A stretch of DNA of 42,650 bases from an uncultured Muribaculaceae bacterium. GTDB taxonomy: Bacteria > Bacillota_I > Bacilli_A > RF39 > UBA660. Made by a program: the position numbers and the translations under genes. The notes beneath the pieces are model-generated. The model ran no database searches. It saw nothing but the letters and a program-made list of their open reading frames with translations, and was not told the DNA's origin. This document shows positions 19,611-42,350 of this stretch, piece by piece. The stretch spans positions 1 through 42,650 of the forward strand of contig CAYJEL010000002.1 in NCBI GenBank assembly GCA_964369245.1. Direction: 5' to 3'. How positions within the stretch are numbered: position 1 is the first letter of the stretch; every line of letters begins with the position of its first letter.

Positions 19611-20765
19611 ATGAAAAAAAATGGATTCACTTTAATAGAGCTTTTAGCAGTAATTATTATACTAGCTATTGTTGCTTTAATAGCAACTCCAATTATACTA
19701 AATGTAATAGAGGATTCAAGAAAATCGGCTAATAAATCACAGATTGAATTATTATTAGGAGGTTTGGAGCAATTATATGCAAGTAATATGCTAAGTGAAA
19801 ATTTAGAGTTAAGTGAAAAAATCAATAATGAAGAAGATGTTTACGATTTAATTCCGACAACAAATGAAAAACCGGCTAATGGTTTTGGAAAAATAAACAA
19901 TGAAGGAAAAGTAGCTATAGCAGTAGAAATAGACAGAGTATGCTATTCTAAAAACTTCGATGATAGTGAATTGAAGATTTATGAATTACTTGACGGAGAT
20001 AATTGTATATTGCCACCTGGTGTAGGAGAATATTTATATCAGTGTAGGTATTATCAATTTTGGAAAGATGAGGCAAATCCTGAAAGTGATTTTCTTTTTG
20101 ATAAATTAACGGGAAAAATTTTAAGCTATATAGGGACAGACACTGAAGTGATTATACCTTGTGAATATGATGGTGTTCCGGTTGAAGTTATAGGAAATCA
20201 TACTAATATCGGTGCTTTTTATGGTAAGAATGTTACTTCAGTAATTATACCGGATTCTATATATAAGATTGAAAATAGCGCTTTTAGAGAATCGAAGTTA
20301 ATAAGTATTATAATACCTAATAGTGTTACGACAATAGAACATAGTGCTTTTTATGGAATTGAAAGTTTGATTAATATAGATTTAGGAGATGGGGTAGAAT
20401 TTTTAGGGAATAGTTCTTTAGAAAAAACCTCTGTAGTTGAATTAACTTTACCAGCTTCTCTTAAAACATTAGAAGCTCAAGGTTGGATGGATGACTTAAA
20501 AATTTTAATTATTGAAGAGGGGAAGTTAACATATTTACCTAGAGATAGCTTTTGGATTTCTCCTAAAACTACTTATTATGAAAAAGTAGTAATTCCTTCT
20601 AATATTACTAGTATACATGAAGCAGCATTTAAAGAGATTAGTGATGGTTGGGGATTAAAGTCAGAAGTAATAGTTTTTACCAATTCTGATAAATTAAGAA
20701 ATGTTGAAGGAGATTTGGGAACTGATTGGTACTATGATGTGAAAAAGTTTGAATTTGAACCATAG
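19611..20765 (+). CDS. Prepilin-type N-terminal domain protein fused to BspA-type leucine-rich repeats (modular type IV pilin-like)
   Basis: MKKNG/FTLIELLAVIIILAIVALIATP is a class III signal peptide (G-1, E+5). The C-terminal half carries LRR_5-like repeats (IIPDSIYKIENSAFRES.., IIPNSVTTIEHSAFYG.., VIPSNITSIHEAAFKE). RBS AGAGGTG. Confidence 0.75.
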   Translation: MKKNGFTLIELLAVIIILAIVALIATPIILNVIEDSRKSANKSQIELLLGGLEQLYASNMLSENLELSEKINNEEDVYDLIPTTNEKPANGFGKINNEGKVAIAVEIDRVCYSKNFDDSELKIYELLDGDNCILPPGVGEYLYQCRYYQFWKDEANPESDFLFDKLTGKILSYIGTDTEVIIPCEYDGVPVEVIGNHTNIGAFYGKNVTSVIIPDSIYKIENSAFRESKLISIIIPNSVTTIEHSAFYGIESLINIDLGDGVEFLGNSSLEKTSVVELTLPASLKTLEAQGWMDDLKILIIEEGKLTYLPRDSFWISPKTTYYEKVVIPSNITSIHEAAFKEISDGWGLKSEVIVFTNSDKLRNVEGDLGTDWYYDVKKFEFEP

Positions 20766-23608: not shown

Positions 23609-24643
23609 ATGAAGAAAGCGTTTACTTTAGTGGAATTACTTGCAATCATTGTTATATTAGGTGTTATTGCAATAGTTAGTATTCCAGCTATAAATGATAT
23701 GTTAGAAAGTCAAAAGGAAGATGAATACGATAAGTTTGTTAAAGACTTGTATTTAGTGGCAGAAAATTACGTAACTATAGAAAGTAGTATTAAAGCTAAC
23801 TTAAATAAAAATGATAATATTTTTATAAATATTGGTGATTTAATAAATGAAGGTTATATTACTCACGAGATTGTTAATCCAAAAACAGAGGAAGTAATTG
23901 ATAGTTCTGATACTATTAAAGTGATTAAAAATGATGATAATAGTTTATCATTTGAGTATTATGATTTTGATATTACAACTGATGCTTATCCACAAAATGG
24001 ACTTGTATTACACTTAGATGGATATACTAAACCAGATAATAATGTTTGGACAGATTTAAGTGGTAATGGTAATGCTGTATTAAATAATATAGCTAGTGAC
24101 GCATGGGATGGAAATTCAATTACTTTTGATGGGGTTAATGATTATGCTATTATTAGTGGTTTTGGAAGTAATATTACTGAATCAATGAGTGTAGTAGTAA
24201 CTTTTAAAGGTTTAAAAAATAATATATGGGGTTCTGGAATTTTAGGTTCTAATCATACAAGTCAAGGTCGTTTATATATTTCAGGTGGAGATAAGTTTGG
24301 TTTTAATTTTACTACTCCTTCTATTGATGCATGGACAACTACCTCAACTGTTATAACTCCTAATAATATATATAATAATGTTACGGTATTTGATCGTACT
24401 ACTAACAATAATAATATTATTTATGTTAATGGAGAGAGTGTTTATAGTGATACTAGGGGACTTGATGTTACTTGGAATGTTGGAGATTTAACTATTGGAA
24501 AAGCATTTGGAATAAATAGTTATTTATCTAATCATCCATATAATAATTCTTCTGTATATGATGTATTAATATATGATAGAGTTTTAAGTGAGGAAGAAGT
24601 TAAATCTATATATACTATAAGTAGTACTAGAATTGGAGAATAA
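23609..24643 (+). CDS. Prepilin-type N-terminal domain protein fused to a LamG/concanavalin-A-like lectin domain (modular type IV pilin-like)
   Basis: MKKA/FTLVELLAIIVILGVIAIVSIPA has E+5 but Ala rather than Gly at -1. The C-terminal ~200 aa look like Laminin_G_3 (LVLHLDG.., WTDLSGNGN.., ITFDGVNDYAII, ..VLIYDRVLSEEEV). Confidence 0.75.
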   Translation: MKKAFTLVELLAIIVILGVIAIVSIPAINDMLESQKEDEYDKFVKDLYLVAENYVTIESSIKANLNKNDNIFINIGDLINEGYITHEIVNPKTEEVIDSSDTIKVIKNDDNSLSFEYYDFDITTDAYPQNGLVLHLDGYTKPDNNVWTDLSGNGNAVLNNIASDAWDGNSITFDGVNDYAIISGFGSNITESMSVVVTFKGLKNNIWGSGILGSNHTSQGRLYISGGDKFGFNFTTPSIDAWTTTSTVITPNNIYNNVTVFDRTTNNNNIIYVNGESVYSDTRGLDVTWNVGDLTIGKAFGINSYLSNHPYNNSSVYDVLIYDRVLSEEEVKSIYTISSTRIGE

Positions 24644-27314: not shown

Positions 27315-28157
27315 ATGTTAAAAAGAATTGTAAATATATTATTATTTGGTAGTTTAGTTTTAGTATTATTAATTATGTTTTTTTTCGTAACTAATTATAA
27401 CTTAGTTAGTGAGAATAATTTAAATAAATATATTAAAGATGCTGATATTTTAAATATAAAGGCTAGTTATATTTTAAATGTTAGTGATGATATTACTGTA
27501 ATTGAAAAGTTAGAGAATATGGCTTTAGAGTTAAATATCCCTGAGGAAATTATTGTAGATATTTTAGATAGTGAAGAGTTAAAATTTTTATTGGTTGAGT
27601 ATTTTGAAAGAAGTTTGAATTCTTATTATGATGATGTTACTATATCTCAAAATACTATTGATAAGATGATTGATTCGGCTCATATTTCTAGTATGGATCA
27701 TTTGAGTGTTGTCATTAGTGATGAAGAATTGGAATATTTAATTATTGAATATTGTAATAATATTCAGCAGTTGATGCCTGAAAAATTAGAAGTAATTGGT
27801 AATTCTACTATTTTAAAAGTATGGAATTATACATTTGATTATAGTTTTGTGAATTATATATTAATTATTTTAGTTTTAATTGTTATTGTTACATTAATTA
27901 ATAAAGATTTTAAAATATCTATAAAGTATATAGGTTTGGGGATGTTAATTTCTGGAGTTATATATGTATTATTAGGTTCTTTAGATAATGTCATTAATAC
28001 TTATTTAACTAATGAGCTGGATGGAATTAAAGTTATTTTATCGCCTTTAATAACACAATTAACTACTATTTGGTTCCAAACAGGTTTCTTATTATCCTTT
28101 TCCGGGGTCTTTATATATTTAATATTTGTATTTATAAAAAGAATTGAAGCTAAGTAA
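27315..28157 (+). CDS. Hypothetical polytopic membrane protein
   Basis: N-terminal TM, an acidic extracytoplasmic middle region and 3-4 C-terminal TM segments. No motif recognised. Confidence 0.55.
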   Translation: MLKRIVNILLFGSLVLVLLIMFFFVTNYNLVSENNLNKYIKDADILNIKASYILNVSDDITVIEKLENMALELNIPEEIIVDILDSEELKFLLVEYFERSLNSYYDDVTISQNTIDKMIDSAHISSMDHLSVVISDEELEYLIIEYCNNIQQLMPEKLEVIGNSTILKVWNYTFDYSFVNYILIILVLIVIVTLINKDFKISIKYIGLGMLISGVIYVLLGSLDNVINTYLTNELDGIKVILSPLITQLTTIWFQTGFLLSFSGVFIYLIFVFIKRIEAK

Positions 28158-29244: not shown

Positions 29245-30319
29245 ATGGAAAGTAATGAGATTATAAATATATATAATAATTATGATAAACGATTAAAAGA
29301 ACTTGGGAGGTTACTTTGAAGTTGATTTAAAAAATAGTCGAATTCTTGAGTTAGAAAATATTATTAATGATGTGTCATTTTGGTCTAATCAAGATAGGAA
29401 AGTTATCGATGAATTAAGTGATTTAAAAAGAACTTTATCAAATTATAAAAATTTAGAAAATAGTTTAGATTTAGAACTTTTAAATTATTTGGAAGATGAA
29501 GAGGTCAAAAGTTTATTAATTTCTGAGGTTTATGAGATTGAGAATAAAATCAATGAGTTAGAAATTGAAATTTTATTAAATGGTGAATATGATAAGGGTG
29601 ATGCTATTTTAGAAATTCATCCTGGAGCTGGTGGTACTGAAAGTTGTGACTGGGCTTTAATGTTATATCGTATGTATACTAGATGGTGTGAGGATAAAAA
29701 TTATAATTATGATATTTTGGATTATCAAAAAGGTGATGAGGCAGGAATCAAATCTGTATCTATTCTTGTTCATGGTATAAATTGTTTTGGATATTTAAAA
29801 AATGAAAAAGGTGTTCATAGGCTAGTTCGTATATCTCCTTTTGATTCTAATTCGAGAAGACACACTTCATTTGCTTCGGTTGAGGTTATACCGTATATTG
29901 ATAGTAAAACTGTTGTACTTGATATAAAAGATGTTGATTTAAAAATTGATGTTTATAGAAGTAGTGGTGCGGGAGGTCAAAGTGTTAATACGACTGATTC
30001 AGCTGTACGTATAACTCATTTACCAACAAAAACTGTTGTTACTTGTCAAAATGAAAGAAGTCAGATCAAAAATAAGGAAAAAGCAATGGAAATACTTTTA
30101 AATAAGTTATACTTATTGGAAGAAGAAAAAAAACAAAAAGAGTTGAATGATTTAAAAGGTGTTCAAACTGAAATTAATTTTGGTTCACAGATTAGAAGTT
30201 ATGTAATGCATCCTTATTCTATGGTTAAGGATCATCGTACTGGAGCTGAAACTAGTAATGTTTTAAAAGTATTAGATGGTGATATAGATTTATTTATAAA
30301 TAAAAGTTTGAAAGGTTAG
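29245..30319 (+). CDS. prfB: Peptide chain release factor 2 (programmed +1 frameshift at 29314-29320)
   Basis: Frame 0 runs ATG 29245 ... GGGAGG TTA CTT TGA, with the in-frame stop at 29317-29319. The +1 frame continues GAA GTT GAT... to 30319. The SD-like GGGAGG lies 3 nt before CTT. The RF2 SPF and GGQ motifs are present downstream. Confidence 0.9.
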
Positions 30320-30322
30320 TGT

Positions 30323-31183
30323 ATGAAGGTATTAAAAAAAGATGTTTTTAAAGTTGATAAACATAGTTTATTTGACTTTGCTATTTTATTGTTAGGTGCT
30401 ACTATAATGGCTTTGGCATTTAATATATTTTTTATAACAAATGAAATTGTTGTAGGTTTTAGTGGGTTGTCTGTAGTTGCTAATCAATTATGGGGAATAA
30501 AACCTTCAGTTTTTATGGCTTGTGGTTATGCTATATTAATAGTATTAAGTTTGATTATTCTAGGATGGAAATCAACCCGCAGATCAGTGATTGGAAGTAT
30601 TTTATATCCTTTATTGGTTGAAGTAACTTCTTATTTAGCAGCTTATATAGTATTCAAAGATGTTGAAGTAATTTTATTAGTTTTATTTGGGGCTGTTGCT
30701 ATGGGATTTGGTTCTGGGCTTGTTTATAAAGTTAATTATTCAACTGGGGGAAGTGATATTATAAATCAAATCATTTCTAAATTTATTAAAAGACCTATTG
30801 GTTATAGTATGATATTATCAAATTGTTTTATTATAAGTGTTGGTTTTTTCACATTTGGATTTAATTCAGTTATTTATTCTTTATTGGCTGTTTATGTTAT
30901 GAGTATAGTGGTTGACAAAGTTATGATAGGAATTTCTGAATCTAAGAATTTTAGAATTATTACTGAATGTGAAACTGAAGTTAAAAAGTTTTTAATTAGT
31001 AGTTTAAGTCATGGTGTAACTGTTACTGAAGGACGTGGTGGTTATACTGGTAATGTTGTTAAAATAATTATGTGTGTTATTCCTACTAAGGAATATATGG
31101 TGGTAAAAGAAGGTATATTGAAAATTGATAAAAATGCTTTAATTTTGGTATCTGATGTTTATGAAGTAGTTGGAAATAAATAA
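30323..31183 (+). CDS. YitT family membrane protein (DUF2179 C-terminal domain)
   Basis: Five or six TM segments plus the C-terminal GVTVTEGRGGYTG motif. Confidence 0.8.
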   Translation: MKVLKKDVFKVDKHSLFDFAILLLGATIMALAFNIFFITNEIVVGFSGLSVVANQLWGIKPSVFMACGYAILIVLSLIILGWKSTRRSVIGSILYPLLVEVTSYLAAYIVFKDVEVILLVLFGAVAMGFGSGLVYKVNYSTGGSDIINQIISKFIKRPIGYSMILSNCFIISVGFFTFGFNSVIYSLLAVYVMSIVVDKVMIGISESKNFRIITECETEVKKFLISSLSHGVTVTEGRGGYTGNVVKIIMCVIPTKEYMVVKEGILKIDKNALILVSDVYEVVGNK

Positions 31184-31196
31184 AAGGGGTGAGGAT

Positions 31197-31892
31197 ATGA
31201 GTTTAATTCAAGTTAAGAATGTTAAAAAGACTTATAAAACTGGTGTGACAGCAGTTCATGATATGAGTTTAAGTATAAATAAAGGAGAATTTGTTTTTAT
31301 AATTGGTTCCACTGGATGTGGTAAATCAACTTTAATAAAAATGTTATATCGTGAGGAAAAACCTACATCTGGAATTATTAATATTGGAGGAATCAATGTT
31401 GGTAAATTAAGAAATTCTAAAGTATTTAAGATAAGAAGAAAAATTGGAGTAGTGTTTCAAGATTTTAAATTATTATCTAAGTCAACTGCTTATGAGAATG
31501 TAGCTTTTGCTTTAGAGATATTTGGTTTACCTAAATCGGAAATACATGCTAAAGTTGTAAAAGCGCTAGATTTGGTAGGTCTTAAAAATAAATCGAAAAG
31601 TTATCCAAATCAACTATCTGGTGGTGAACAACAAAGGGTTGCGATAGCAAGAGCAATTGTAAATGGACCAAAATTATTAATATGTGATGAGCCTACAGGT
31701 AACTTAGATGAAAATACTAGTATGGAAATAATGAAGGTTTTGGATGAAATTAGTAAATTGGGAACAACAATTATAATGGTTACTCATGATAAGGATATTG
31801 TTAATAAAATGAAAAAAAGAGTTATTTTATTAGATTCTGGACGTATTGTTAAGGATTTTTCAGAAGGGGAGTATAGCAATGAAAGTATTTAG
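31197..31892 (+). CDS. ftsE: Cell division ATP-binding protein FtsE
   Basis: Walker A GSTGCGKST, signature LSGGEQQRVAIARA and Walker B LLICDEPTGNLD. The ATG at 31197 follows RBS AAGGGGTGAGGA. Confidence 0.92.
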   Translation: MSLIQVKNVKKTYKTGVTAVHDMSLSINKGEFVFIIGSTGCGKSTLIKMLYREEKPTSGIINIGGINVGKLRNSKVFKIRRKIGVVFQDFKLLSKSTAYENVAFALEIFGLPKSEIHAKVVKALDLVGLKNKSKSYPNQLSGGEQQRVAIARAIVNGPKLLICDEPTGNLDENTSMEIMKVLDEISKLGTTIIMVTHDKDIVNKMKKRVILLDSGRIVKDFSEGEYSNESI

Positions 31893-32781
31893 GATTTTAT
31901 TTAGAAATATAAGAGATTCTTTCAAAAGTATTTTTAGGAATTTTTCATTGTCTTTAGCTTCGTTAATTAGTATTATAATTACTTTATTAGTTGTTGCATT
32001 ATCAATTATTTTATCTTTAAATATAAATAATTTTACTAGAGAAGTTGAAAAAGATTTAACTATTGTTGTTTTTTTAGATGCTGATGTTAGTTTAGAAAGA
32101 ATAGATGAAATAGATGATGAGATTAAATTATTAAATAATATTTCTAGTTATGAATTTATTGATAAAATGCAAGTTCGTGATGAAATGATGGCTAGTAGTG
32201 AAGCTTATGAAAGTTTATTAGCTAAGTATGAAACAAGAGAAGAAAATCCTTTATCTGATTCTTATAATGTTAAAGTTGTTGATGTTAATAGTTTAGAAAG
32301 TGTTGCTTTAGAATTAATGGAAATTGATGATGTTATAAGTGTTAAATATGGAGAGGGATTAATTGAACAACTTATTTCTGTATTTACTACTATCAGAACT
32401 GTTAGTTTATGGGTTGTTGTTTCATTAGTAGCAGTTACAGCATTTTTAATTACTAATACTATTAAAATAACTATTTTTTCAAGAAAAAGGGAAATTGAAA
32501 TTATGCGTTTAGTTGGTGCTTCTAATATAAATATTAAAATTCCATTTATTTTAGAAGGTTTATTTATTGGTTTATTTGGATCTATTATTCCAATAATAGC
32601 TACAATAATTGGTTATGAAAAATTTTATGTAGCATTTAGTCTACAAGATATTTCACCTTTTATAAAATTGTTAGAACCAATGCCATTTTCTTTAATGGTA
32701 TCAGGAATATTACTAGTTATAGGAGTATTTGTTGGTATGATTGGATCATGGTTAGCGGTAAGAAAACACTTAAAAGTTTAG
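31879..32781 (+). CDS. ftsX: Cell division permease-like protein FtsX
   Basis: TM1, a ~110-aa extracellular loop domain, then three C-terminal TM segments. Overlaps ftsE by 14 nt. Confidence 0.88.
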   Translation: MKVFRILFRNIRDSFKSIFRNFSLSLASLISIIITLLVVALSIILSLNINNFTREVEKDLTIVVFLDADVSLERIDEIDDEIKLLNNISSYEFIDKMQVRDEMMASSEAYESLLAKYETREENPLSDSYNVKVVDVNSLESVALELMEIDDVISVKYGEGLIEQLISVFTTIRTVSLWVVVSLVAVTAFLITNTIKITIFSRKREIEIMRLVGASNINIKIPFILEGLFIGLFGSIIPIIATIIGYEKFYVAFSLQDISPFIKLLEPMPFSLMVSGILLVIGVFVGMIGSWLAVRKHLKV

Positions 32782-32793
32782 GAGAGTGATTTT

Positions 32794-34044
32794 ATGGATA
32801 TTTGTAATAATCCAGATGTTTTATCTATATTTTATATTATTACAACGTTTGTTGAAATAGCTATGTTTGCAGCACCTGTTATTTTAATTATTTTGATTAT
32901 GATTGATTTAATTAAAGGTATAGCAGGTGATCCTGATAAAATGAAAAGTACTAGAAAAAATATCATAACTAGAATTATAGCTGTTGTTATTTTGTTATTA
33001 GTACCTTTAACTATTGAGTTTTCACAAGGTTTAATGGGAGAAACAGAATTAGAGTATTTACAATGTTTTACGAATGCTAATATAGATGAGATAAATGATA
33101 TTAGATATTCACAAGCAGAGGAAGCTTTAGCTTTAGCGGAAAGTAAACAAACTAGATATTATTATGATGCGGCTTCTTTATTGGTAGCTAAAATAACTGA
33201 TAGTGATGATAAGGATGATTTTACTAATCGTTTGGAAACTTTAAATAATATTATCACTTCTATTGAACAAGGTAAATTAAAACCTTTCACATCTGAAGAT
33301 TTAATTTTTGGTAATACTGGAAATGTTGGTGGAACTGGTAGTTTAACTGTTTCTGGTTATTATACTGATGGTAAAGCTTCTGGGTGTACTGGTGGAGGAG
33401 CTTTGTATACCAAACAACCAGATCCTGCGATAGCAATTAATTATTGGGATGAACAAGGTTTACTTGATGCGTCTGATTTTATTTATCCGGAAGCAACGGA
33501 TGGGACATCTTTAGGAGCTTGGCCAGCTAATTTTAGAGAAATACCTGAACAACTTACAAATATGACTTTTTATAATGGAAATATTATTTGGCCGGTTGAA
33601 CCTTTAAATGGTATAGTTGCAGGTAATTATGGTCATAATGGACCTGAATATGGTTATGATATTACCACTGAAATGGGAGCACCAGTATATGCGCCTGCAT
33701 CCGGAACTCTAGTTTACTCAGAATGGGGAAATACAACTTATAGGAGGTGTCAAGATACAGCTTATTCAGTAAGGATTGAACTTGATACTCCTGTACAAAT
33801 CGATGATGTTTATGTTGAATATATTTTTATAACTCATTTAATGGGAATTGTACAACATTGTCCAAGAAGTACTTGTGAAACTCAAGTAAAAGTAGGTCAA
33901 TTAATCGGATTTGCTGGACATGCAAATGAGCCACATTTACATTTAACTTTTTATGATAAAAATATAAAACGCGGTGTGAATAGTGACTTTTTTGACACTT
34001 TTTATAATACTGATCAAGGTCTTGAAAAAGGAGTTGGTCAATAA
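32794..34044 (+). CDS. Membrane-anchored M23/LytM-domain peptidase paralog 1 (2-TM hairpin, helical stalk, M23 domain)
   Basis: Two N-terminal TM helices flank a K/R-rich loop, followed by a helical region. The C-terminal M23 motifs are HNGPEYGYD, GAPVYAPASG, FITHLMG and PHLHLTFY. Starts 12 nt after ftsX. Confidence 0.8.
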   Translation: MDICNNPDVLSIFYIITTFVEIAMFAAPVILIILIMIDLIKGIAGDPDKMKSTRKNIITRIIAVVILLLVPLTIEFSQGLMGETELEYLQCFTNANIDEINDIRYSQAEEALALAESKQTRYYYDAASLLVAKITDSDDKDDFTNRLETLNNIITSIEQGKLKPFTSEDLIFGNTGNVGGTGSLTVSGYYTDGKASGCTGGGALYTKQPDPAIAINYWDEQGLLDASDFIYPEATDGTSLGAWPANFREIPEQLTNMTFYNGNIIWPVEPLNGIVAGNYGHNGPEYGYDITTEMGAPVYAPASGTLVYSEWGNTTYRRCQDTAYSVRIELDTPVQIDDVYVEYIFITHLMGIVQHCPRSTCETQVKVGQLIGFAGHANEPHLHLTFYDKNIKRGVNSDFFDTFYNTDQGLEKGVGQ

Positions 34045-34712
34045 TGGATAAAAAAATTAAATTAATGTTGATAGTGTTAGGTGTATTTGTTGTAATAGTT
34101 TTATCTTTGTCTTTTATTGGTTCTCTTTATAATAGAGATGTTAAATATTATAAAAATATTTCTGATATAGTTATTGGAATGTATAGAAGTCCTGAGTATG
34201 ATAATTCTGGTATTTCAAAAGAAGATAAAAAGTATTTAGAAAGTTACTTAGCAACATTAACTCATGAAAATCATATTGTTGATTTAAGTAAGTTTATGGA
34301 AGGTGCGGATAGTACTAGTGCTTCTAATTCTCCTAATGTTTTTATAGAAAATAATAAGTGTTTTATAAAATATGATGATTTAAATTTTGTATATGAATAT
34401 AACGATGAAGAAGATTTCGAACAAGGACATAATCATGGAACTTCTGATCAGTTAATAATACTTAATTGTATGGGCAAAGAGCTTTTGATTAATAATTATG
34501 ACTTTTATCCTGAGTATAATGAGACTTTAGAAAATCCGTTGTATGATTACAATTTTATTGGTTATACTGAAGAAGATAATATATTTAATTCTTTTTATAG
34601 ATCAATTTATAACGGTTCTACTGTTATATTAGAAATTAAGTTAAATAATAATGATATTGAAAGTATAGAAGTTAGGCCTGTAAATATTAATAATTATGAA
34701 ATAATAAATTAA
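34044..34712 (+). CDS. Partner protein 1: N-terminally anchored extracytoplasmic protein of unrecognised family
   Basis: TAATG overlap with paralog 1. One N-terminal TM. Motifs shared with the other two partners: YYKNIS, YL.TLTHEN, PEY.ETLENP..DY..IGY and FYRSIY. Confidence 0.75.
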   Translation: MDKKIKLMLIVLGVFVVIVLSLSFIGSLYNRDVKYYKNISDIVIGMYRSPEYDNSGISKEDKKYLESYLATLTHENHIVDLSKFMEGADSTSASNSPNVFIENNKCFIKYDDLNFVYEYNDEEDFEQGHNHGTSDQLIILNCMGKELLINNYDFYPEYNETLENPLYDYNFIGYTEEDNIFNSFYRSIYNGSTVILEIKLNNNDIESIEVRPVNINNYEIIN

Positions 34713-34723
34713 GGAGTGTGTTT

Positions 34724-35983
34724 ATGGAAATCTGTAATAATCCAGATGTTTTATCTATATTTTATATAATTACAACGTTTGTTGAAATAGCTATGTTTGC
34801 AGCACCTGTTATTTTAATTATTTTGATTATGATTGATTTAATTAAAGGTATAGCAGGTGATCCTGATAAAATGAAAAGTACTAGAAAGAATATTATAACT
34901 AGAATTATAGCGGTTGTAATATTGTTGTTAGTACCATTAACTATTGAGTTCTCGCAGAATTTAATGGGAGAAACAGAATTAGAGTATTTACAATGTTTTA
35001 CGAATGCGAATATAGATGAGATAAATGATATTAGATATTCACTAGCAGAGGAAGCTTTATCTTTAGCTGAAAGTAAACAAACGAGATATTATTATGATGC
35101 TGCTTCTTTATTAGTAGCTAAAATAACTGATAGTGATGATAAGGATGATTTTACTAATCGTTTGGAAACTTTAAATAATATTATAACTTCTATTGAAAAT
35201 GATAAGTTGAAGCCTTTTACTTCTGAAGATTTAATTTTTGGTAATACTGGTAATGTCGGTGGTGAAGGTAGTTTAGATGTTGTGGGTTATGGAAGTGATG
35301 GTAAAGATTATGGTTGTACTAGTGGTGGACAATTAAGTTCTGAACCTGATCCGTCACAAGTTATTAATTACTGGGATAGTAAAGGAATGTTAGATGCAGA
35401 TGATTATATTTACCCAGCTGTTAATGGAGAGCTTTATGGTGCATGGCCTGCAAATTATAAAGAATATCCATCACAATTAACTAATGTTAAAACATATAAT
35501 GGTTTAAGTTATCCAATAACTTCTGATTATCATGGTACAGAAGGGAAGTACCAATTCGTATATCAACACAATGGAATTGATTTTATGTCTTCAATTGGAA
35601 CACCTGTTTATTCACCAGTTGATGGTACTTTAGAATACTCTGAGTGGGGACATACAACATATCGTGGGTGTGATGAAAATGCTTATTCTATTACTATTAA
35701 TATGGATGAATCTGTAACTTTTAATGGCTATACTTTTGATACGGTGTTTTTAACTCATTTAAGTGGAATAGTTTTTAGATGTTCAAGAAATGAGTGTAAT
35801 CAAGAAATTAAAGCTGGTCAATTGATTGGATTTGTTGGTAATGCTGTTGGTGGTTTTGGAGGTTATGCTCCACATTTACATATGACTTTATATGGTGGAA
35901 GTTATAGTTCTGGGTTGAAATCTACTGTTATTGAAAATTTATATGATATAACTTCTGGTGATATTAGGATGGCTGGTGAATAA
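34724..35983 (+). CDS. Membrane-anchored M23/LytM-domain peptidase paralog 2
   Basis: The N-terminal ~178 aa are nearly identical to paralog 1. The divergent M23 domain has the canonical HNGID, then GTPVYSPVDG, LTHLSG and PHLHMTLY. The ATG at 34724 lies 7 nt after AAGGAG. Confidence 0.8.
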   Translation: MEICNNPDVLSIFYIITTFVEIAMFAAPVILIILIMIDLIKGIAGDPDKMKSTRKNIITRIIAVVILLLVPLTIEFSQNLMGETELEYLQCFTNANIDEINDIRYSLAEEALSLAESKQTRYYYDAASLLVAKITDSDDKDDFTNRLETLNNIITSIENDKLKPFTSEDLIFGNTGNVGGEGSLDVVGYGSDGKDYGCTSGGQLSSEPDPSQVINYWDSKGMLDADDYIYPAVNGELYGAWPANYKEYPSQLTNVKTYNGLSYPITSDYHGTEGKYQFVYQHNGIDFMSSIGTPVYSPVDGTLEYSEWGHTTYRGCDENAYSITINMDESVTFNGYTFDTVFLTHLSGIVFRCSRNECNQEIKAGQLIGFVGNAVGGFGGYAPHLHMTLYGGSYSSGLKSTVIENLYDITSGDIRMAGE

Positions 35984-36624
35984 TGGAAAAAAATATTAAA
36001 AGACTTTTAATTGCGTTTGGTATTGTTGTTTTAATATTAGTTATTTTGTTATTGTTAAATTTTGTTTACAAAAGAGATGAAAAGTATTATAAAAATATAT
36101 CTGAGGTAGTTATTTCATTATTTGATAGTAGTGATTATTCTACATCAGGTATCAATAAAAGTGATATTATTAAAATAGATGAGTATTTATCAACTTTAAC
36201 ACATGAAAATGAGTTAGTTAATTTAAATAAGTTTATTGATGATAATACTGATTATAATAAAAATTGGAATAATTCAGAGGGAGTTATTGTTGAGAATAAT
36301 GTGTGTTATATTTATTATGGTGATATTGATTTTAAGTTGATAGAAGATGTGACAGTAGAAAATTCAGCTGTTATATATTGTGATGGTTATCAAATTAAAA
36401 TTTATGAAGATAGCTTTATGCCAGAATATTCGGAAACTTTAGAAAATCCTGTTCATGATTATGTTTATATTGGATATAATTTTACTTTAGATAATTACAT
36501 TGGTTTTTATCGTTCTATATATGATGGTAGTGAGATTGGTGTTTTTATTAATTTAAGTGATACTGAAATAGATGTTATTGAAGTTAATGGTGTTAATTTT
36601 AATGATTATAATATTATAAAATAA
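35983..36624 (+). CDS. Partner protein 2
   Basis: TAATG overlap with paralog 2. Same architecture and motifs as partners 1 and 3, but it is the most divergent of the three. Confidence 0.75.
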   Translation: MEKNIKRLLIAFGIVVLILVILLLLNFVYKRDEKYYKNISEVVISLFDSSDYSTSGINKSDIIKIDEYLSTLTHENELVNLNKFIDDNTDYNKNWNNSEGVIVENNVCYIYYGDIDFKLIEDVTVENSAVIYCDGYQIKIYEDSFMPEYSETLENPVHDYVYIGYNFTLDNYIGFYRSIYDGSEIGVFINLSDTEIDVIEVNGVNFNDYNIIK

Positions 36625-36635
36625 GGGGTGTATGT

Positions 36636-37973
36636 ATGAGTATTTGTTCTGATCCAGATGTGTTATCAATATTTTATATCATAACAGCATTTGTTAATAT
36701 TGCTATGTTTGTAGCTCCTGTTTTATTAATTGTTTTAACTATGGTTGATTTAATAAAAGGTATTAGTGGTGATGAAAGCAAGTTAAAAAATATTAGAAAA
36801 TCTATAATTACTAGAATTGTAGCTTTAGTAATTTTATTGTTAGTTCCTTTAACAATTGAATTTTCTCAAGGCTTAATGGGGGATAATGAATTAGAATATT
36901 TGAAGTGTTTTACTGATGCTAATGCTGATGACATAGGTGATATAAGATATGATTTAGCTGAAGATGCTTTATTGGATGCTGAATTAAAGCAAAATAGATA
37001 TTATTATGATAAAGCATCATTATTAGTAGCTAAAGTTACTGATAAAGATGATAAAGAAGAATTGGAAGAAAGATTAGATGAGTTAGATAATATTATAACT
37101 CAAATTGAACAAGGTAAATTACCTCAAATTACTACTGATGATTTAGCTTTTGATGGTTTGGGAGCTCCTTCTAAGCATTATTCTAATTTAGCTAATAAAA
37201 ATGCTGCTGTTTGTGTAGCTGGAACTGAATATGAATATGCTCCACAGCCTGATTTAGCTTTAAATTTTTGGGAAGGTGGAAAAAGCGTTACTGAATGGCA
37301 TGGAGATGCATGGGTAGTTGATTCTGAAGACTATTATTATCCTGCTACAGCTCAAGGTGTTTCTTTAGGAGCATGGCCTAAAATTGATGATTATCCTTTA
37401 CAGTTGGAAAATCCTAAAATTTATTTTGATAATTTCATTTGGCCTGTTGATACTGCTGGAGGTTATAGTGGGAATTATGTTCATAATGGACCTGAATATG
37501 GTATGGATATTTTGACTTATATGGGAACTCCAGTATATGCTCCTGCTAGTGGAGTTTTGGAATATTCTGAATATGGTCATACTGGTCTTATTGATTGTCA
37601 AGATACAGCTTATAGTGTTAGAATTAGATTAGATGAACCTGTACGATTTAATGGAGTAGTTGATCCAAATCCTAATAATGAAACTTATGATCCACCGGTA
37701 AATGTTGATATTGAGGTAATATTTATTACACATTTAATGGGTATTCGTTATTATTGTCCTGAGGATAGTTGTTATATGCGTGTTGAAGCTGGTGAGTTGA
37801 TTGGATTTAGTGGAACTGCGGGAGGAATTAGTTCTGAAACAGGTAAACCACGATTTGCACCACATTTACATATGACTTTTTATGATGATATTATCGTTAA
37901 TGGGGTAGCTAGTTTTGATTTTAATCATATTTATAGCATTGATGAGGGCGATAAAAGAATGGCTGGTGAATAA
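36636..37973 (+). CDS. Membrane-anchored M23/LytM-domain peptidase paralog 3
   Basis: Same architecture. The N-terminal module is roughly 75% identical to paralogs 1 and 2. The M23 core is closest to paralog 1 (HNGPEYGMD, GTPVYAPASG, CQDTAYSVRI, FITHLMG, PHLHMTFY). Confidence 0.8.
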   Translation: MSICSDPDVLSIFYIITAFVNIAMFVAPVLLIVLTMVDLIKGISGDESKLKNIRKSIITRIVALVILLLVPLTIEFSQGLMGDNELEYLKCFTDANADDIGDIRYDLAEDALLDAELKQNRYYYDKASLLVAKVTDKDDKEELEERLDELDNIITQIEQGKLPQITTDDLAFDGLGAPSKHYSNLANKNAAVCVAGTEYEYAPQPDLALNFWEGGKSVTEWHGDAWVVDSEDYYYPATAQGVSLGAWPKIDDYPLQLENPKIYFDNFIWPVDTAGGYSGNYVHNGPEYGMDILTYMGTPVYAPASGVLEYSEYGHTGLIDCQDTAYSVRIRLDEPVRFNGVVDPNPNNETYDPPVNVDIEVIFITHLMGIRYYCPEDSCYMRVEAGELIGFSGTAGGISSETGKPRFAPHLHMTFYDDIIVNGVASFDFNHIYSIDEGDKRMAGE

Positions 37974-38620
37974 TGAAAAAGAAAGTTATTATAGGTGGTA
38001 TATCTTTTATTGTAGTAATGTTTTTAATTATTAGTATTAATAACATTTTAAAAAGAGATGTGAATTATTATACTAATATAAGTGATGTTGTAATAAGTAT
38101 GTATAGAAGTCCTGATTATGACAAAAGTGGAATATCTAAAGAAGATAAATTATACTTAGATAAATATTTATCAACTTTGACTCATGAAAATCATGTTGTT
38201 GATTTAACTGAATTTATTGATTATTCAAAAAATACTTCTAAAGCAAATTCAGATTATGTTTTTGTTGAAGATGGAGTTTGTAAAATTGATTATAACAATT
38301 TAGATTTGGTTAATGAAACGTATAAAAATGATTCTCTCCATGAAACTACTGATAAGATAATTGTTCTATATTGTAATGGTAAGGTAATATATATTGATAA
38401 TTTTGTTTTTGAACCTGATTATGAGATAACTAAAAATAATCCTTTTTATGATTATGCTTATGTAGGTTATGCTGAGGAAGGTAGTAGTTTTTTAGGTTTT
38501 TATCGTTCTTTATATGATTTTAGTACGGTGAGAGTTAAAATAGATGTTGATTATGATGGTAATATTGAGAATATAGATGTAAAACCTGTAGATTTTTATG
38601 ATTATGAAATTATTAAATGA
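37973..38620 (+). CDS. Partner protein 3
   Basis: TAATG overlap with paralog 3. Closest to partner 1 (MYRSP.YD.SGISKEDK.YL..YL.TLTHENH.VDL). Confidence 0.75.
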   Translation: MKKKVIIGGISFIVVMFLIISINNILKRDVNYYTNISDVVISMYRSPDYDKSGISKEDKLYLDKYLSTLTHENHVVDLTEFIDYSKNTSKANSDYVFVEDGVCKIDYNNLDLVNETYKNDSLHETTDKIIVLYCNGKVIYIDNFVFEPDYEITKNNPFYDYAYVGYAEEGSSFLGFYRSLYDFSTVRVKIDVDYDGNIENIDVKPVDFYDYEIIK

Positions 38621-40698: not shown

Positions 40699-40782
40699 TG
40701 CGTAGGATCTACGCTTGAATTTATCACGATATAAATGTGATTTAATTCAACCCCCAGATGTGGAGCTTTTAGCTCCTTTTTT
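40699..40782 (+). ncRNA. Candidate small RNA (~85 nt, three hairpins, unpaired C5 tract)
   Basis: Lies between the promoter above and the terminator below. Hairpin 1 is GCGTAG-gat-CTACGC (40700-40714). Hairpin 2 is TTGAAT..ATCAC-gatataaat-GTGAT..ATTCAA (40715-40750). A single-stranded CCCCC follows (40751-40755), then the terminator hairpin. There is no ORF and no downstream + strand gene. Confidence 0.4.
40762..40782 (+). terminator. Intrinsic terminator
   Basis: GGAGCT-ttt-AGCTCC followed by T6. The T-run overlaps the stop codon of the convergent - strand gene. Confidence 0.65.
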
Positions 40783-41602
40783 ATTTGATAAAAGAATCAA
40801 AGTCTTCTAGGGTATCTATGGTATTTGGATTTTTAAAGAAACGGTGAATTTTTTCAGATTTCTTTGAAGTTTTTTTAATATCGCTCGTTAGTAGTTTAGT
40901 TATTTTTAATTCATTAATATAATAGTTTATTTTTTCTTTGCATATTTCAATTAAATTTGCTTCTTGTTTTGATATTTCTTTTTTTTGTTGGGTAATATAT
41001 ATATAATCTAATAATCTTATAATTTCAGTTGTATTAAAAATGTTTTGATATTTATCCAATTCTTGTATTAATGTTTTTAAATCGCATGAAAAAAATAGTT
41101 GTTGCATTAAGTTTATTCCAATTATAAATTCTAGCTTTCTTGTTATATCTTTAAAATAGTTTTTTTCTTCTTTTTTAAAAACGTGTTGTTCGATTAAACT
41201 TTTATATCCATAGGTTAATGCTTGTCCTATATTTTCATTATTCTTTTGGGTAAATCCTTCAAAGTCTTTATAATTATAGTTCATTTCAATCATTTCTCTG
41301 ATTAAAGTAGGTTTTTGTTTTTGTTTTTCTAAGTTGTAATCTAAAATTTCATAAGATATTGTTGGAAATTTGTATGAAATATGGTTTTTAAATACTTCAT
41401 AATTTTTATCACTTATTGTTTTTGTAATGGTAGGTTTATTTTGTATTTTTAAAGTTGCTTTTGTCTTAGTTTTAAAATCTTTGTTAATTTTATATTTGTT
41501 TAATATTTTTTTGCTTATATTTGTAATTGTATATAGGCCTATGCAAGTTGTACTTAAGATGATTACTGAGTTTTCATATGATAAAAAATCCTTAATAGTC
41601 AT
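40781..41602 (-). CDS. Hypothetical protein (273 aa, one N-terminal TM)
   Basis: Long ORF with a strong RBS (AAGGAGA 7 nt upstream on the - strand). Lys-rich. No recognisable motif. Confidence 0.6.
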   Translation of the reverse strand: MTIKDFLSYENSVIILSTTCIGLYTITNISKKILNKYKINKDFKTKTKATLKIQNKPTITKTISDKNYEVFKNHISYKFPTISYEILDYNLEKQKQKPTLIREMIEMNYNYKDFEGFTQKNNENIGQALTYGYKSLIEQHVFKKEEKNYFKDITRKLEFIIGINLMQQLFFSCDLKTLIQELDKYQNIFNTTEIIRLLDYIYITQQKKEISKQEANLIEICKEKINYYINELKITKLLTSDIKKTSKKSEKIHRFFKNPNTIDTLEDFDSFIK

Positions 41603-41828
41603 AGTGTCTCCTTTTTTTAAATATATTATAATGTATATTTTTTTTTATTGCAAGTTTGAATTTGACAAATTACAATAAATATTATAAAATAGTGTCTATG
41701 TGAGGAGATATAAGCATTTTGTGAGCTATCTCGGGATAAATTCCTACACGATTATTCAAAGTCGGAGTCACTTAGTTTTAAGAGAATCAGACTTTTTTTT
41801 GAGCAATAAAAATAGAAGGGAATGTTAT

Positions 41829-42350
41829 ATGGAAAATATTTATTATGAAAAATATAAAAAGAAAATTGCTGATTATAAATGTCATAATAAGGGTGAATTA
41901 TTTATTGATTCTCCATTATTAGCTAATTTTTATAATTATAATGAAATTAGCGCATCTGTTAATGAAAAATTAATGTATAGTACTTTGAAGTATTTACATG
42001 AAAAAGGTTTTTTATTACAAAGGTTGGGAACACATTTATATGCTAGGTTAATTAATAATATTATTAGTAATTTTAATAGTTATTTAGATACTGAATCTTT
42101 TCTTTCTGATATTATAGTTAACTATAGTGATCCTTATTCAGATAAATTTAGGGAATTTGCTAGAGATGATGAAGAGGTAGGGATAACTTCTTTTCACACT
42201 CTAATTTGTGCTGGATATAAAGGTGAGGGCGAATTATTTTTACCTAATGAAATAGTTAAAGATATTTCAGAATTATTACCTTATTATATAAAAAATGGTT
42301 TGGATATGAGTAAAAGTGAAAGTAGTAAAACTTTAGCTAAAATTGGTTAA
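41829..42350 (+). CDS. Hypothetical protein (173 aa)
   Basis: The ATG at 41829 lies 8 nt after a GAAGGG RBS. The upstream GTG at 41700 offered by the ORF track has no RBS and lies in a probable leader. Confidence 0.55.
   Translation: MENIYYEKYKKKIADYKCHNKGELFIDSPLLANFYNYNEISASVNEKLMYSTLKYLHEKGFLLQRLGTHLYARLINNIISNFNSYLDTESFLSDIIVNYSDPYSDKFREFARDDEEVGITSFHTLICAGYKGEGELFLPNEIVKDISELLPYYIKNGLDMSKSESSKTLAKIG

What the first reader, a model, noticed from the sequence alone, without database searches (positions are those of the whole stretch)
34044..34712. Partner proteins look like a new membrane-anchored extracytoplasmic family, coupled to each peptidase by a TAATG overlap
The three partners lie at 34044-34712, 35983-36624 and 37973-38620.
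- Each starts on the A of the peptidase stop codon (TAATG in all three junctions). This argues for translational coupling and matched stoichiometry.
- Each has a short basic N-terminus, one TM helix and then a ~185-aa domain.
- Conserved blocks are (R/K)RD..YY.NIS..VI, SGI.K.D, YL.TLTHEN..V.L..F, PEY.ET..NP..DY..[IV]GY, FYRS[IL]Y and a C-terminal Y[EN]II.
- Two Cys are invariant (C.I.Y and [LIV].C.G), suggesting an extracellular disulfide.
- I recognise no catalytic or known-domain signature.

Extracytoplasmic anchoring is what one would expect for an inhibitor or immunity factor acting on an exported peptidoglycan hydrolase.
Basis: partly seen in the sequence, partly recalled or inferred. Interest (0 to 1): 0.7.

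Follow-up and report, generated by a model that had tools for sequence, protein, structure and literature searches.

The report
New partner family for membrane-tethered wall hydrolases
The three small genes are real and encode an undescribed outer-face membrane protein with no known fold relative, always found directly after an equally undescribed membrane-anchored cell-wall-cutting enzyme, so it is most likely that enzyme's dedicated regulatory subunit.

Summary
Three paralogous ORFs (34044-34712, 35983-36624, 37973-38620) share 45-52% identity. Each starts on the last base of the preceding M23 gene's stop codon (TAATG).

- **New family.** There is no Pfam, NCBIfam, PADLOC, PHROG or PDB match. 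An exhaustive HMMER scan of 1.84 billion proteins gave only 64 relatives, all from uncultured gut "Bacilli/Mollicutes" assemblies and unnamed. With 52 homologues AlphaFold2 gives pLDDT 93.6, and Foldseek finds no significant PDB or viral neighbour.
- **Location.** Most homologues carry a lipoprotein signal, so the domain lies outside the membrane.
- **The upstream enzyme is not freely exported.** It carries a conserved N-terminal two-helix membrane hairpin and helical stalk. This module is fused in different genomes to M23, NlpC/P60, C39-like or VanY domains.
- **Pairing.** The partner followed 22 of 22 non-VanY hairpin hydrolases with contig room. It followed 0 of 64 generic M23 control loci and 0 of 2 related M23 genes lacking the hairpin.
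- **Specificity.** Partner subtypes follow the catalytic domain type, while hairpin modules are homogenised within a genome.

Best reading: a cognate tethered regulatory subunit, probably a latch holding the catalytic head inactive. An activator role is nearly as likely. Classical immunity is unlikely.

The parts
31170..32781 (+). ftsE (31170-31892) and ftsX (31846-32781), immediately upstream of the first cassette with a 12-nt gap
   Evidence: Pfam ABC_tran at 7e-38; FtsX_ECD at 4e-14 and FtsX at 1e-11. Among the related loci recovered, ftsEX adjacency is seen only in this window.
32794..34044 (+). Hydrolase A. Hairpin and stalk module at aa 1-165, then a linker, then an M23 domain. The HxxxD zinc motif carries a 4-aa insertion (HNGPEYGYD).
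   Evidence: Peptidase_M23 at 5.8e-8 and sub-threshold T4SS_pilin at 5.8e-4. TM helices at 22-40 and 56-74 with a positively charged loop. Alignment.
34044..34712 (+). Partner A (222 aa), the finding itself. N-terminal membrane anchor at aa 7-25; ectodomain at aa 29-222 (34128-34709).
   Evidence: Family HMM E = 1.4e-61. AF2 pLDDT 93.6.
34718..35983 (+). Hydrolase B. Same architecture as A, with the canonical HNGID and PHLHMT motifs. The likely start is the ATG at 34724.
   Evidence: Peptidase_M23 at 3e-9. Alignment. Motif check.
35983..36624 (+). Partner B (213 aa)
   Evidence: HMM E = 1.5e-62.
36636..37973 (+). Hydrolase C. Same architecture as A; its HxxxD motif also carries the GPEY insertion.
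   Evidence: Peptidase_M23 at 1.7e-6, 28.5 bits against a 28.7-bit cut-off. Alignment.
37973..38620 (+). Partner C (215 aa)
   Evidence: HMM E = 7.4e-56.
32794..33333 (+). 5' tract of hydrolase A that is 87-98% identical at DNA level to 34724-35263 of hydrolase B. Beyond it identity falls to about 60%. This looks like a gene-conversion tract covering only the hairpin and stalk module.
   Evidence: Sliding DNA identity in 90-nt windows.

Best explanation
The three ORFs encode a previously undescribed family of membrane-tethered proteins on the outer face of the membrane. Each is the cognate partner subunit of the hydrolase encoded just upstream.

**The hydrolases.** They form a second undescribed family.
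- An N-out/C-out two-helix membrane hairpin and a helical stalk of about 75 aa, with two invariant outer-face Cys, carry the enzyme.
- A flexible linker follows.
- An interchangeable peptidoglycan-cleaving head sits at the end: M23 here, and NlpC/P60 or C39-like elsewhere.

**Expression.** Partner and enzyme are made together from overlapping or abutting genes.

**Mechanism I commit to (inferred, not shown).** The partner sits flat on the membrane. In most homologues it is tethered at both ends, by a lipid or N-terminal helix and by a C-terminal helix. It binds its own type of catalytic head and holds it inactive at the membrane surface. Release occurs where wall cleavage is needed. In this genome the release signal may come from the FtsEX complex encoded directly upstream.

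**Likelihoods.** 'Dedicated cognate subunit of a tethered wall hydrolase' is about 0.85 likely. The specific inhibitory-latch direction is about 0.4 likely.
For: **Shown**
- The genes are real and conserved, and the predicted fold is confident.
- The domain is extracytoplasmic, because most homologues have lipoprotein signals. The hydrolase hairpin topology follows the positive-inside rule.
- Pairing is strict. 22 of 22 non-VanY hairpin hydrolases with contig room are followed by a partner within -4 to +19 nt. There were 0 partner hits in 64 generic M23 control loci.
- The partner is absent after related M23 heads that lack the hairpin (L002; L029).
- The pair keeps together across at least five chromosomal contexts: recX, ftsK to parE, veg to spoVG, a short FtsK-like gene, and ftsEX.
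- Partner subtype follows head type. In L007 and L019, the partners of the M23 and NlpC/P60 cassettes in one genome are 25-28% identical. Partners of the same head type in other genomes are mostly 36-49% identical; one divergent locus, L022, falls to 29%. Hairpin modules show the reverse: 52-53% within a genome against 29-41% between genomes.
- In the window, gene conversion has homogenised only the hairpin module of A and B (97% aa). The heads (44%) and partners (46%) stay distinct.
- The Shine-Dalgarno sequence for the partner lies in the last codons of the hydrolase.

**Inferred**
- Long Gly/Ser/Asn linkers, for example in L008, would let a head reach back to a membrane-surface partner.
Against: - No binding, inhibition or structural-complex evidence was obtainable.
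- One partner family accompanies three unrelated catalytic folds, which is unusual for an active-site-directed inhibitor.
- Within the long-M23 type, partner divergence correlates equally with head and hairpin divergence (r = 0.85 for each). Co-evolution analysis therefore does not single out the head.
- The subtype-follows-head pattern could simply reflect physical linkage at the 3' end of an old duplicated cassette.
- A 1:1 co-expressed inhibitor needs a release mechanism, and there is no evidence for one.
- ftsEX adjacency occurs only in this window.
Confidence: 0.4

Rival explanations
1. Activator or cofactor. The partner is required for hydrolase activity, as ActH is for the amidase LytH, where the partner stabilises the metal cofactor. 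It would complete or stabilise the active site, or present substrate.
For: - Obligate 1:1 co-expression suits a required cofactor better than a constitutive inhibitor.
- Hydrolases A and C have a 4-aa insertion inside the HxxxD zinc motif, so their metal site may need help.
- Many long-M23-type partners conserve T-H-(E/D/N)-N just after helix 2. These residues could be metal ligands.
- Precedent: partner-dependent metal stabilisation in LytH-ActH (PMC9245657).
Against: - The same family also serves cysteine peptidases (NlpC/P60, C39-like), which have no metal.
- The THEN motif is missing in some long-M23 partners, for example P0033.
- Most hydrolases in the family have canonical motifs.
- No direct test was possible.
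Confidence: 0.3
2. Assembly, stability or localisation subunit of the hairpin and stalk anchor. The partner would help membrane insertion, protect from proteolysis, or recruit the enzyme to the divisome. It would have no direct effect on catalysis.
For: - The partner is present only when the hairpin module is present. It is absent after related M23 heads that lack it.
- Many partners are membrane-tethered at both ends, so they sit next to the hairpin.
- Division-related neighbours (ftsEX, ftsK) occur in several loci.
Against: - Hairpin-VanY fusions have a different, non-homologous downstream protein.
- Partner subtypes follow head type rather than hairpin similarity.
Confidence: 0.17
3. Classical immunity protein that protects the producer or its kin from a wall-degrading toxin used against competitors, as in polymorphic-toxin loci.
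For: - Toxin-then-immunity gene order.
- Tandem diversified cassettes, three here.
- Interchangeable C-terminal heads on a constant N-terminal module.
- Lipoprotein immunity proteins are known for peptidoglycan-hydrolase effectors (PMC3391265, PMC10933484).
Against: - The enzyme is membrane-anchored by two helices and has no recognisable secretion or trafficking domain.
- One 'immunity' family would cover three unrelated toxin folds.
- Contexts are housekeeping, and there are no phage, plasmid or viral-contig matches.
- No PADLOC hits, that is, no match to any known anti-phage defence protein.
Confidence: 0.08

Closest known systems
IseA (YoeB), proteinaceous inhibitor of the D,L-endopeptidases LytE/LytF/CwlO in Bacillus subtilis (PMC7299342)
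   Same: A small extracytoplasmic protein in a Bacillota member that acts on the cell's own wall endopeptidases. It is the closest functional precedent for the latch reading.
   Different: - IseA is secreted rather than membrane-tethered.
- It is encoded away from its targets and regulated separately by WalRK.
- It acts on NlpC/P60 enzymes only.
- No sequence or fold similarity to any solved structure was found for the partner.
LytH-ActH and SagB-SpdC of Staphylococcus aureus: membrane-anchored hydrolases that need a membrane-protein partner (PMC9245657, PMC9616470)
   Same: A membrane-tethered wall hydrolase working as a two-protein complex with a dedicated membrane partner. The partner controls activity at the membrane-proximal wall.
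   Different: - Those partners are polytopic membrane proteins unrelated in sequence.
- Here the partner is a single-domain ectoprotein. Here the two genes form a tight cassette, and the enzyme anchor is a two-helix hairpin.
- From my own knowledge, not checked here: the S. aureus genes are not arranged as an overlapping cassette.
FtsEX-controlled hydrolases (PcsB, CwlO, RipC, EnvC-amidases) and the CwlO cofactors SweC/SweD (PMC6705773, PMC10694151)
   Same: In this window the cassettes directly follow ftsEX, and the hydrolases have a helical region after the anchor. Small bitopic cofactors are needed in the B. subtilis system.
   Different: - The functional domains of SweC/SweD are cytoplasmic, whereas the partner is outside.
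- The stalk is about 75 aa, far shorter than the PcsB/CwlO/EnvC coiled coils.
- ftsEX adjacency is not conserved in the other loci.
Peptidoglycan-hydrolase effector and immunity pairs (Tse1-Tsi1; Xanthomonas T4SS X-Tfe/X-Tfi; TelC-TipC) (PMC3391265, PMC10933484, PMC6193138)
   Same: Bicistronic hydrolase-then-partner order, partners that are often lipoproteins or membrane-anchored, and modular enzymes with exchangeable heads.
   Different: - There is no secretion-system targeting domain and no secretion-system genes nearby.
- The enzyme is membrane-anchored.
- One partner family spans three catalytic folds.
VirB2/TrbC-like 'T4SS_pilin' hairpins (Pfam PF18895)
   Same: The hydrolase N-terminal module has the same two-helix hairpin layout. 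5 of 11 members hit PF18895 over almost the whole model, with a best E of 3.4e-5.
   Different: - The two hits whose scores were listed (20.3 and 22.5 bits) are below the 26.6-bit gathering score; the other members' scores were not shown.
- No conjugation genes are nearby.
- This concerns the enzyme, not the partner.

Membership tests
Any curated protein family (Pfam-A, NCBIfam, PADLOC, PHROGs) | A score above the family's threshold for the partner protein | tested here: not met
   For the three window partners there were no hits above cut-off. Among 52 family members scanned against Pfam, only the lipoprotein signal model LPAM_1 recurs, in 6 members.
Any solved structure, including inhibitors such as IseA, cystatins and lysozyme inhibitors | Significant sequence-profile or fold similarity | tested here: not met
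   The 52-sequence profile against PDB sequences gave a best E of 0.027 to a de novo design. Foldseek of the pLDDT 93.6 model against PDB gave a best E of 0.1 and TM 0.2-0.35, with only partial NTF2/cystatin-like curved sheets. The BFVD search gave a best E of 0.05. No AlphaFold DB search was available.
Bacterial lipoprotein | Signal peptide ending in a lipobox L-x-[GAS]-C | tested here: not met
   The three window partners have no Cys near the N-terminal helix, so they have an uncleaved anchor. At least 42 of the 66 proteins classified do carry a lipobox, and many also have a C-terminal helix.
Toxin-immunity (polymorphic toxin) pair | Adjacent cognate gene downstream of the toxin | tested here: met
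   22 of 22 cassettes.
Toxin-immunity (polymorphic toxin) pair | The toxin carries a secretion or trafficking domain, or lies with a secretion system | tested here: not met
   Only a two-helix membrane hairpin was found. The RHS/YD hits at E of about 0.07 are noise. Neighbours are housekeeping genes.
Toxin-immunity (polymorphic toxin) pair | The immunity family is specific to one toxin fold | tested here: not met
   The same partner family follows M23, NlpC/P60 and Peptidase_C39_2 heads.
FtsEX-regulated hydrolase system | Conserved linkage to ftsEX | tested here: not met
   Linkage is present in the window only. No FtsE or FtsX homologue was found in the other family loci. Flanks were limited to 4-10 kb, so genome-wide presence of ftsEX is unknown.
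FtsEX-regulated hydrolase system | A coiled-coil domain that binds the FtsX extracellular domain | not testable with these tools
   A helical stalk of about 75 aa exists, but no complex prediction or binding test was available.
Active M23 (LytM-type) metallopeptidase, for the upstream enzymes | HxxxD and HxH zinc/catalytic motifs | tested here: inconclusive
   HxH (PHLH) and the THL/THM histidine are present in all three. HxxxD is canonical in B (HNGID). In A and C it is interrupted by GPEY, giving HNGPEYG[YM]D.
T4SS_pilin PF18895, for the enzyme's hairpin | A score above the gathering threshold of 26.6 bits | tested here: not met
   20.3 bits for the full-length protein and 22.5 bits for the isolated N-module (E = 5.8e-4 and 1.2e-4). 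The best E among 11 members was 3.4e-5, with 5 of 11 hitting. The resemblance is suggestive only.

The most novel reading that the evidence does not exclude
The hairpin-stalk anchor and the partner together form a previously unrecognised portable chassis for membrane-tethered autolysins in uncultured gut Bacilli.
- One constant anchor carries interchangeable catalytic heads: M23, NlpC/P60 and C39-like.
- Each head is gated by a matched ecto-subunit with a new fold.
- In this genome three such cassettes lie directly downstream of ftsEX, apparently in the same operon (not shown). This would be a new route by which cells license wall cleavage from the membrane.
Probability: 0.3. Interest if true: 0.75.

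Novelty: new variant of a known kind. Interest (0 to 1): 0.58.

Why it matters
How bacteria keep their own wall-cutting enzymes from killing them is a central open question, and these enzymes are potential antibiotic targets. Known answers involve a handful of regulator types: FtsEX, LytM factors, IseA, ActH and SpdC.

This locus adds a compact two-gene solution made of two families with no annotation. One is a hairpin-anchored enzyme chassis with exchangeable heads. The other is a matched ecto-subunit whose confidently predicted fold has no solved relative.

Three diverged cognate pairs sit side by side in one operon. That offers a natural specificity-swap experiment. The system is also small enough to reconstitute from synthetic genes, even though the host organisms are uncultured.

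Tried and rejected
**Searches that found little or nothing**
- The word-indexed protein search, with either the partner profile or hydrolase A, found only the window's own proteins plus one outsider each. The family only became visible with the exhaustive HMMER scan.
- The same limitation hit the hairpin-module profile, which gave 4 hits.
I scanned with the M23 alignment instead.
- The first AF2 run, with 4 sequences, was mediocre at pLDDT 70.8 and was not used.
- Foldseek against PDB and BFVD found no significant neighbour.
- The viral-contig scan and tblastn against phage and plasmid collections found nothing.
- Rfam and tRNA scans of the window were empty.

**Tests that were negative or uninformative**
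- hhalign of the family profile found no real homology to the proteins downstream of the VanY fusions. For the protein downstream of the dockerin-M23 gene, only the signal peptide aligned.
- Mirror-tree correlation within the long-M23 type gave r = 0.85 for both head and hairpin, so it did not discriminate.
- The promoter and terminator scan was uninformative in this AT-rich DNA.

**Ideas rejected**
- A phage lysis cassette or mobile-element cargo: no support.
- A lipobox at the hydrolase N-terminal Cys: no signal peptide precedes it.
- An invariant disulfide: the Cys pair is absent from 16 of 52 members.
Full report
**1. The observation**

The window is a chromosomal stretch of about 25% G+C with nearly all genes on the + strand. 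Between ftsX (ends 32781) and recG (starts 38730) lie three repeats of a large gene followed by a small gene.

| Cassette | Hydrolase | Partner |
|---|---|---|
| A | 32794-34044 | 34044-34712 |
| B | 34718-35983 | 35983-36624 |
| C | 36636-37973 | 37973-38620 |

- All three junctions read TAATG, so the stop and start codons share one base.
- The small proteins are 45-52% identical to one another.
- Each has a basic N-tail, one strongly hydrophobic helix and a domain of about 185 aa.

Overlapping start and stop codons are common in this genome, including another 1-nt overlap at 14553. The overlap alone is weak evidence of anything special.

**2. A real but very small and unannotated family**

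- No Pfam, NCBIfam, PADLOC or PHROG model matches the partners.
- A word-indexed search of 5.8 billion proteins found only one outside relative, P0004.
- An exhaustive HMMER scan of 1.84 billion cluster representatives found 64 proteins at E ≤ 1e-3, of which 49 were at E ≤ 1e-10.
- Where a source name exists, it is "hypothetical protein [Bacilli bacterium]".
- Genome records carrying the family are MAGs labelled uncultured Bacilli or Mollicutes, and several come from gut samples.

The window itself encodes Spo0A, EzrA, FtsH, TilS, PGK, TIM, RF2, FtsEX and RecG. It is therefore ordinary chromosome from a walled Bacillota lineage with sporulation-type regulators. No relative was found in phage, plasmid or viral-contig collections.

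**3. Location and fold**

At least 42 of the 66 proteins classified (the four found by the first search and the HMMER hits) begin with a lipoprotein signal (L-x-G-C) where the window's copies have an uncleaved helix. Many also end in a second hydrophobic helix. A lipoprotein of a single-membrane bacterium sits on the outer face, so the conserved domain is extracytoplasmic. In many members it is pinned to the membrane at both ends.

With a 52-sequence alignment, AlphaFold2 gives pLDDT 93.6 and pTM 0.85. The model has two N-terminal helices followed by a mostly-β domain of about ten strands.

- Foldseek found no match with E below 0.001 in PDB. The best was E = 0.1 with TM 0.2-0.35, a partial overlap with NTF2/cystatin-like curved sheets.
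- Foldseek found no such match in BFVD either.
- A profile search of PDB sequences found nothing.

The two Cys co-vary across the family: 33 members have both, 16 have neither, 3 have only the second and none has only the first. They lie in or at the end of two β-strands of the model (residues 78 and 114). A disulfide is plausible but is not a family invariant.

**4. The upstream enzymes are themselves a new, modular, membrane-anchored family**

Each window hydrolase starts with a short acidic tail bearing an invariant Cys. Two hydrophobic helices follow (about 22-40 and 56-74), separated by a loop with 5 K/R. Then comes an acidic segment with a second invariant Cys and a helical stalk of about 75 aa. 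The charge distribution predicts N-out/C-out topology, which places both Cys and the catalytic domain outside.

This module weakly resembles Pfam T4SS_pilin. 5 of 11 members hit it, with a best E of 3.4e-5; the two scores listed (20.3 and 22.5 bits) are below the 26.6-bit cut-off.

In other genomes the same module is fused to different catalytic heads.

| Head | Locus |
|---|---|
| Long M23 subtype | most loci |
| Short canonical M23 | L009 |
| NlpC/P60 | L007, L019, L026 |
| Peptidase_C39_2-like | L010 |
| VanY | L012, L013, L014; P0073 |

**5. Co-occurrence**

I built HMMs of the partner family and of the hairpin module. I searched all ORFs of every locus fetched. This included 80 metagenome loci found with an M23 alignment. 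16 of those belong to the long-M23 subfamily, and 64 are generic M23 genes that serve as controls.

- Every non-VanY hairpin hydrolase with contig room downstream (22 of 22) is followed by a partner gene starting -4 to +19 nt from its stop.
- The two without a partner end within 75 nt of the contig edge.
- None of the 64 control loci has a partner or a hairpin module.
- Two genes with a long-M23 head but no hairpin are followed by unrelated proteins. These are the dockerin-M23 gene P0008 in L002 and the gene in L029.
- Hairpin-VanY fusions are followed by a different membrane protein of 236-237 aa with no detectable homology.

The pair travels together through different neighbourhoods.

| Neighbourhood | Loci |
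|---|---|
| recX | 7 |
| ftsK to parE | 4 |
| veg to spoVG | 3 |
| a short FtsK-like gene | 2 |
| ftsEX | this window only |

**6. What the partner follows**

- **Between cassette types in one genome.** In L007 and L019 an M23 cassette and an NlpC/P60 cassette sit side by side. Their hairpin modules are 52-53% identical, against 29-41% for hairpins of the same head type in other genomes. Their partners are only 25-28% identical. Partners of M23 cassettes in other genomes are mostly 36-49% identical; the divergent L022 partner falls to 29%.
- **Cys pair.** In the cassettes examined it occurs only in partners of the long-M23 type. Partners of the NlpC/P60, C39-like and short-M23 heads lack both Cys. 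The long-M23 partners in L003 and L006 have only one.
- **Within the window.** The first 540 nt of hydrolases A and B are 87-98% identical in DNA. Identity then drops to about 60%. This is a gene-conversion tract confined to the hairpin module. The heads (44% aa) and partners (46%) have stayed apart.

So the partner requires the hairpin-anchored form, but its subtype matches the catalytic head. Within the long-M23 type alone, partner divergence correlates equally with head and hairpin divergence (r = 0.85 each). Finer co-evolution analysis does not discriminate.

**7. Mechanism**

*Shown:* the two proteins are co-encoded, both are tethered on the outer face of the membrane, their pairing is obligate, and partner subtype matches head type.

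*Inferred:* they form a complex. I commit to a latch model.
- The membrane-surface partner binds its cognate head and keeps it inactive near the membrane.
- The head is joined to the stalk by a flexible linker, which is very long and Gly/Asn-rich in L008.
- The head is released when cleavage is licensed. Here that signal may come from FtsEX, whose genes directly precede the array.

I put this at about 0.4.

The main rival, at 0.3, is an activator of the LytH-ActH kind (PMC9245657).
- *For:* co-expression is obligate. Hydrolases A and C, alone among the 9 long-M23 hydrolases whose motif was read out, have a GPEY insertion inside the HxxxD zinc motif. Many long-M23 partners conserve T-H-E-N just after helix 2.
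- *Against:* the same family serves metal-free cysteine peptidases.

A purely structural or localising subunit of the anchor is possible, at about 0.17.

Classical immunity, at about 0.08, is disfavoured for three reasons.
- The enzyme is membrane-bound and has no trafficking domain.
- One partner family spans three unrelated folds.
- The context is housekeeping.

**8. Comparison with known systems**

In function this resembles known ways of controlling a cell's own wall hydrolases with a dedicated protein.
- The secreted inhibitor IseA (PMC7299342).
- The membrane partners ActH and SpdC (PMC9245657, PMC9616470).
- FtsEX with coiled-coil hydrolases and the cofactors SweC/SweD (PMC6705773). The functional domains of SweC/SweD are cytoplasmic.

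In gene layout it resembles effector-immunity pairs (PMC3391265, PMC10933484, PMC6193138). It is a member of none of these. Homology to every curated family and solved structure was tested and not found, and the defining features of toxin-immunity and FtsEX systems were mostly not met (see the membership table).

**9. Verdict**

This is a real, new protein family with a confidently predicted fold that has no solved relative. It is strictly paired with a new family of hairpin-anchored, head-swappable wall hydrolases. The kind of system, a wall hydrolase with a dedicated protein partner, is known. The parts and their modular arrangement are new, so I rate it a new variant of a known kind.

The inhibitor/immunity idea is half-plausible: a cognate inhibitor is possible, but immunity is unlikely.

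Interest is moderate to high, at 0.58. The topic is active and the system is compact and testable. However, the direction of regulation is unproven and the hosts are uncultured.

Noticed in passing
window 33634-33660 and 37482-37508: Hydrolases A and C carry a 4-aa insertion (GPEY) inside the M23 HxxxD zinc-binding motif, giving HNGPEYG[YM]D. Hydrolase B and the six other long-M23 relatives whose motif was read out have HNGID or HTGID. Hydrolase A also has GNT in place of the conserved GHT. Activity may be altered or may depend on the partner.
   Followed up: partly
window 32794-33333 versus 34724-35263: There is a sharp-edged tract of 87-98% DNA identity between the 5' parts of hydrolase genes A and B, with about 60% identity beyond it. 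This looks like recent gene conversion confined to the hairpin and stalk module.
   Followed up: yes
L012 2606-4307; L013 4871-6527; L014: The same hairpin and stalk module is fused to a VanY-type domain. It is intact in P0073 and split in L012. It is followed by an unrelated membrane protein of 236-237 aa with no Pfam match, which may be an analogous partner of a different family.
   Followed up: partly
L002 690-2472; L029 32-1360: Two genes carry a long-M23 catalytic domain without the hairpin module. One has dockerin repeats. The other has a different N-terminus and appears frameshifted. Neither is followed by the partner family. L002 instead has an unrelated lipoprotein with a C-terminal helix.
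   Followed up: partly
L007 1071-4759; L019 4001-7707; L026: A recurrent tandem of an M23 cassette and an NlpC/P60 cassette, each with its own partner. In L007 and L019 it lies between ftsK and parE.
   Followed up: yes
window 29246-30319: prfB shows the classic programmed +1 frameshift site. A short frame-0 ORF (ATG at 29246) ends in CTT TGA, preceded by an internal GGGAGG. The main RF2 frame continues from there.
   Followed up: partly
window 19611-20765: An ORF combines a prepilin-type N-terminal methylation motif (N_methyl, 2e-7) with BspA-type leucine-rich repeats (LRR_5, 3e-21). This is an unusual pilin-like protein with an LRR head.
   Followed up: no
window 1-42650: GC skew is very strong and uniform (0.3-0.5) with nearly all genes on the + strand. 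It dips to about 0.13 around 20-22 kb, where rpsD lies on the - strand.
   Followed up: no
window 23609-24643, 27315-28157, 40781-41602 (-), 41700-42350: Four sizeable ORFs have no Pfam match at E ≤ 1e-4. The two after recG are lysine- and asparagine-rich and lie in the lowest-GC part of the window.
   Followed up: no
hydrolase residues C4 and C91 (window 32803-32805, 33064-33066) and equivalents: Two Cys are invariant in all 11 hairpin modules aligned, one before helix 1 and one after helix 2. Both are predicted to lie outside. With the paired Cys in the M23 head (RYRCxxxxC) and in the partner, this hints at extracytoplasmic disulfide formation in these anaerobes.
   Followed up: partly
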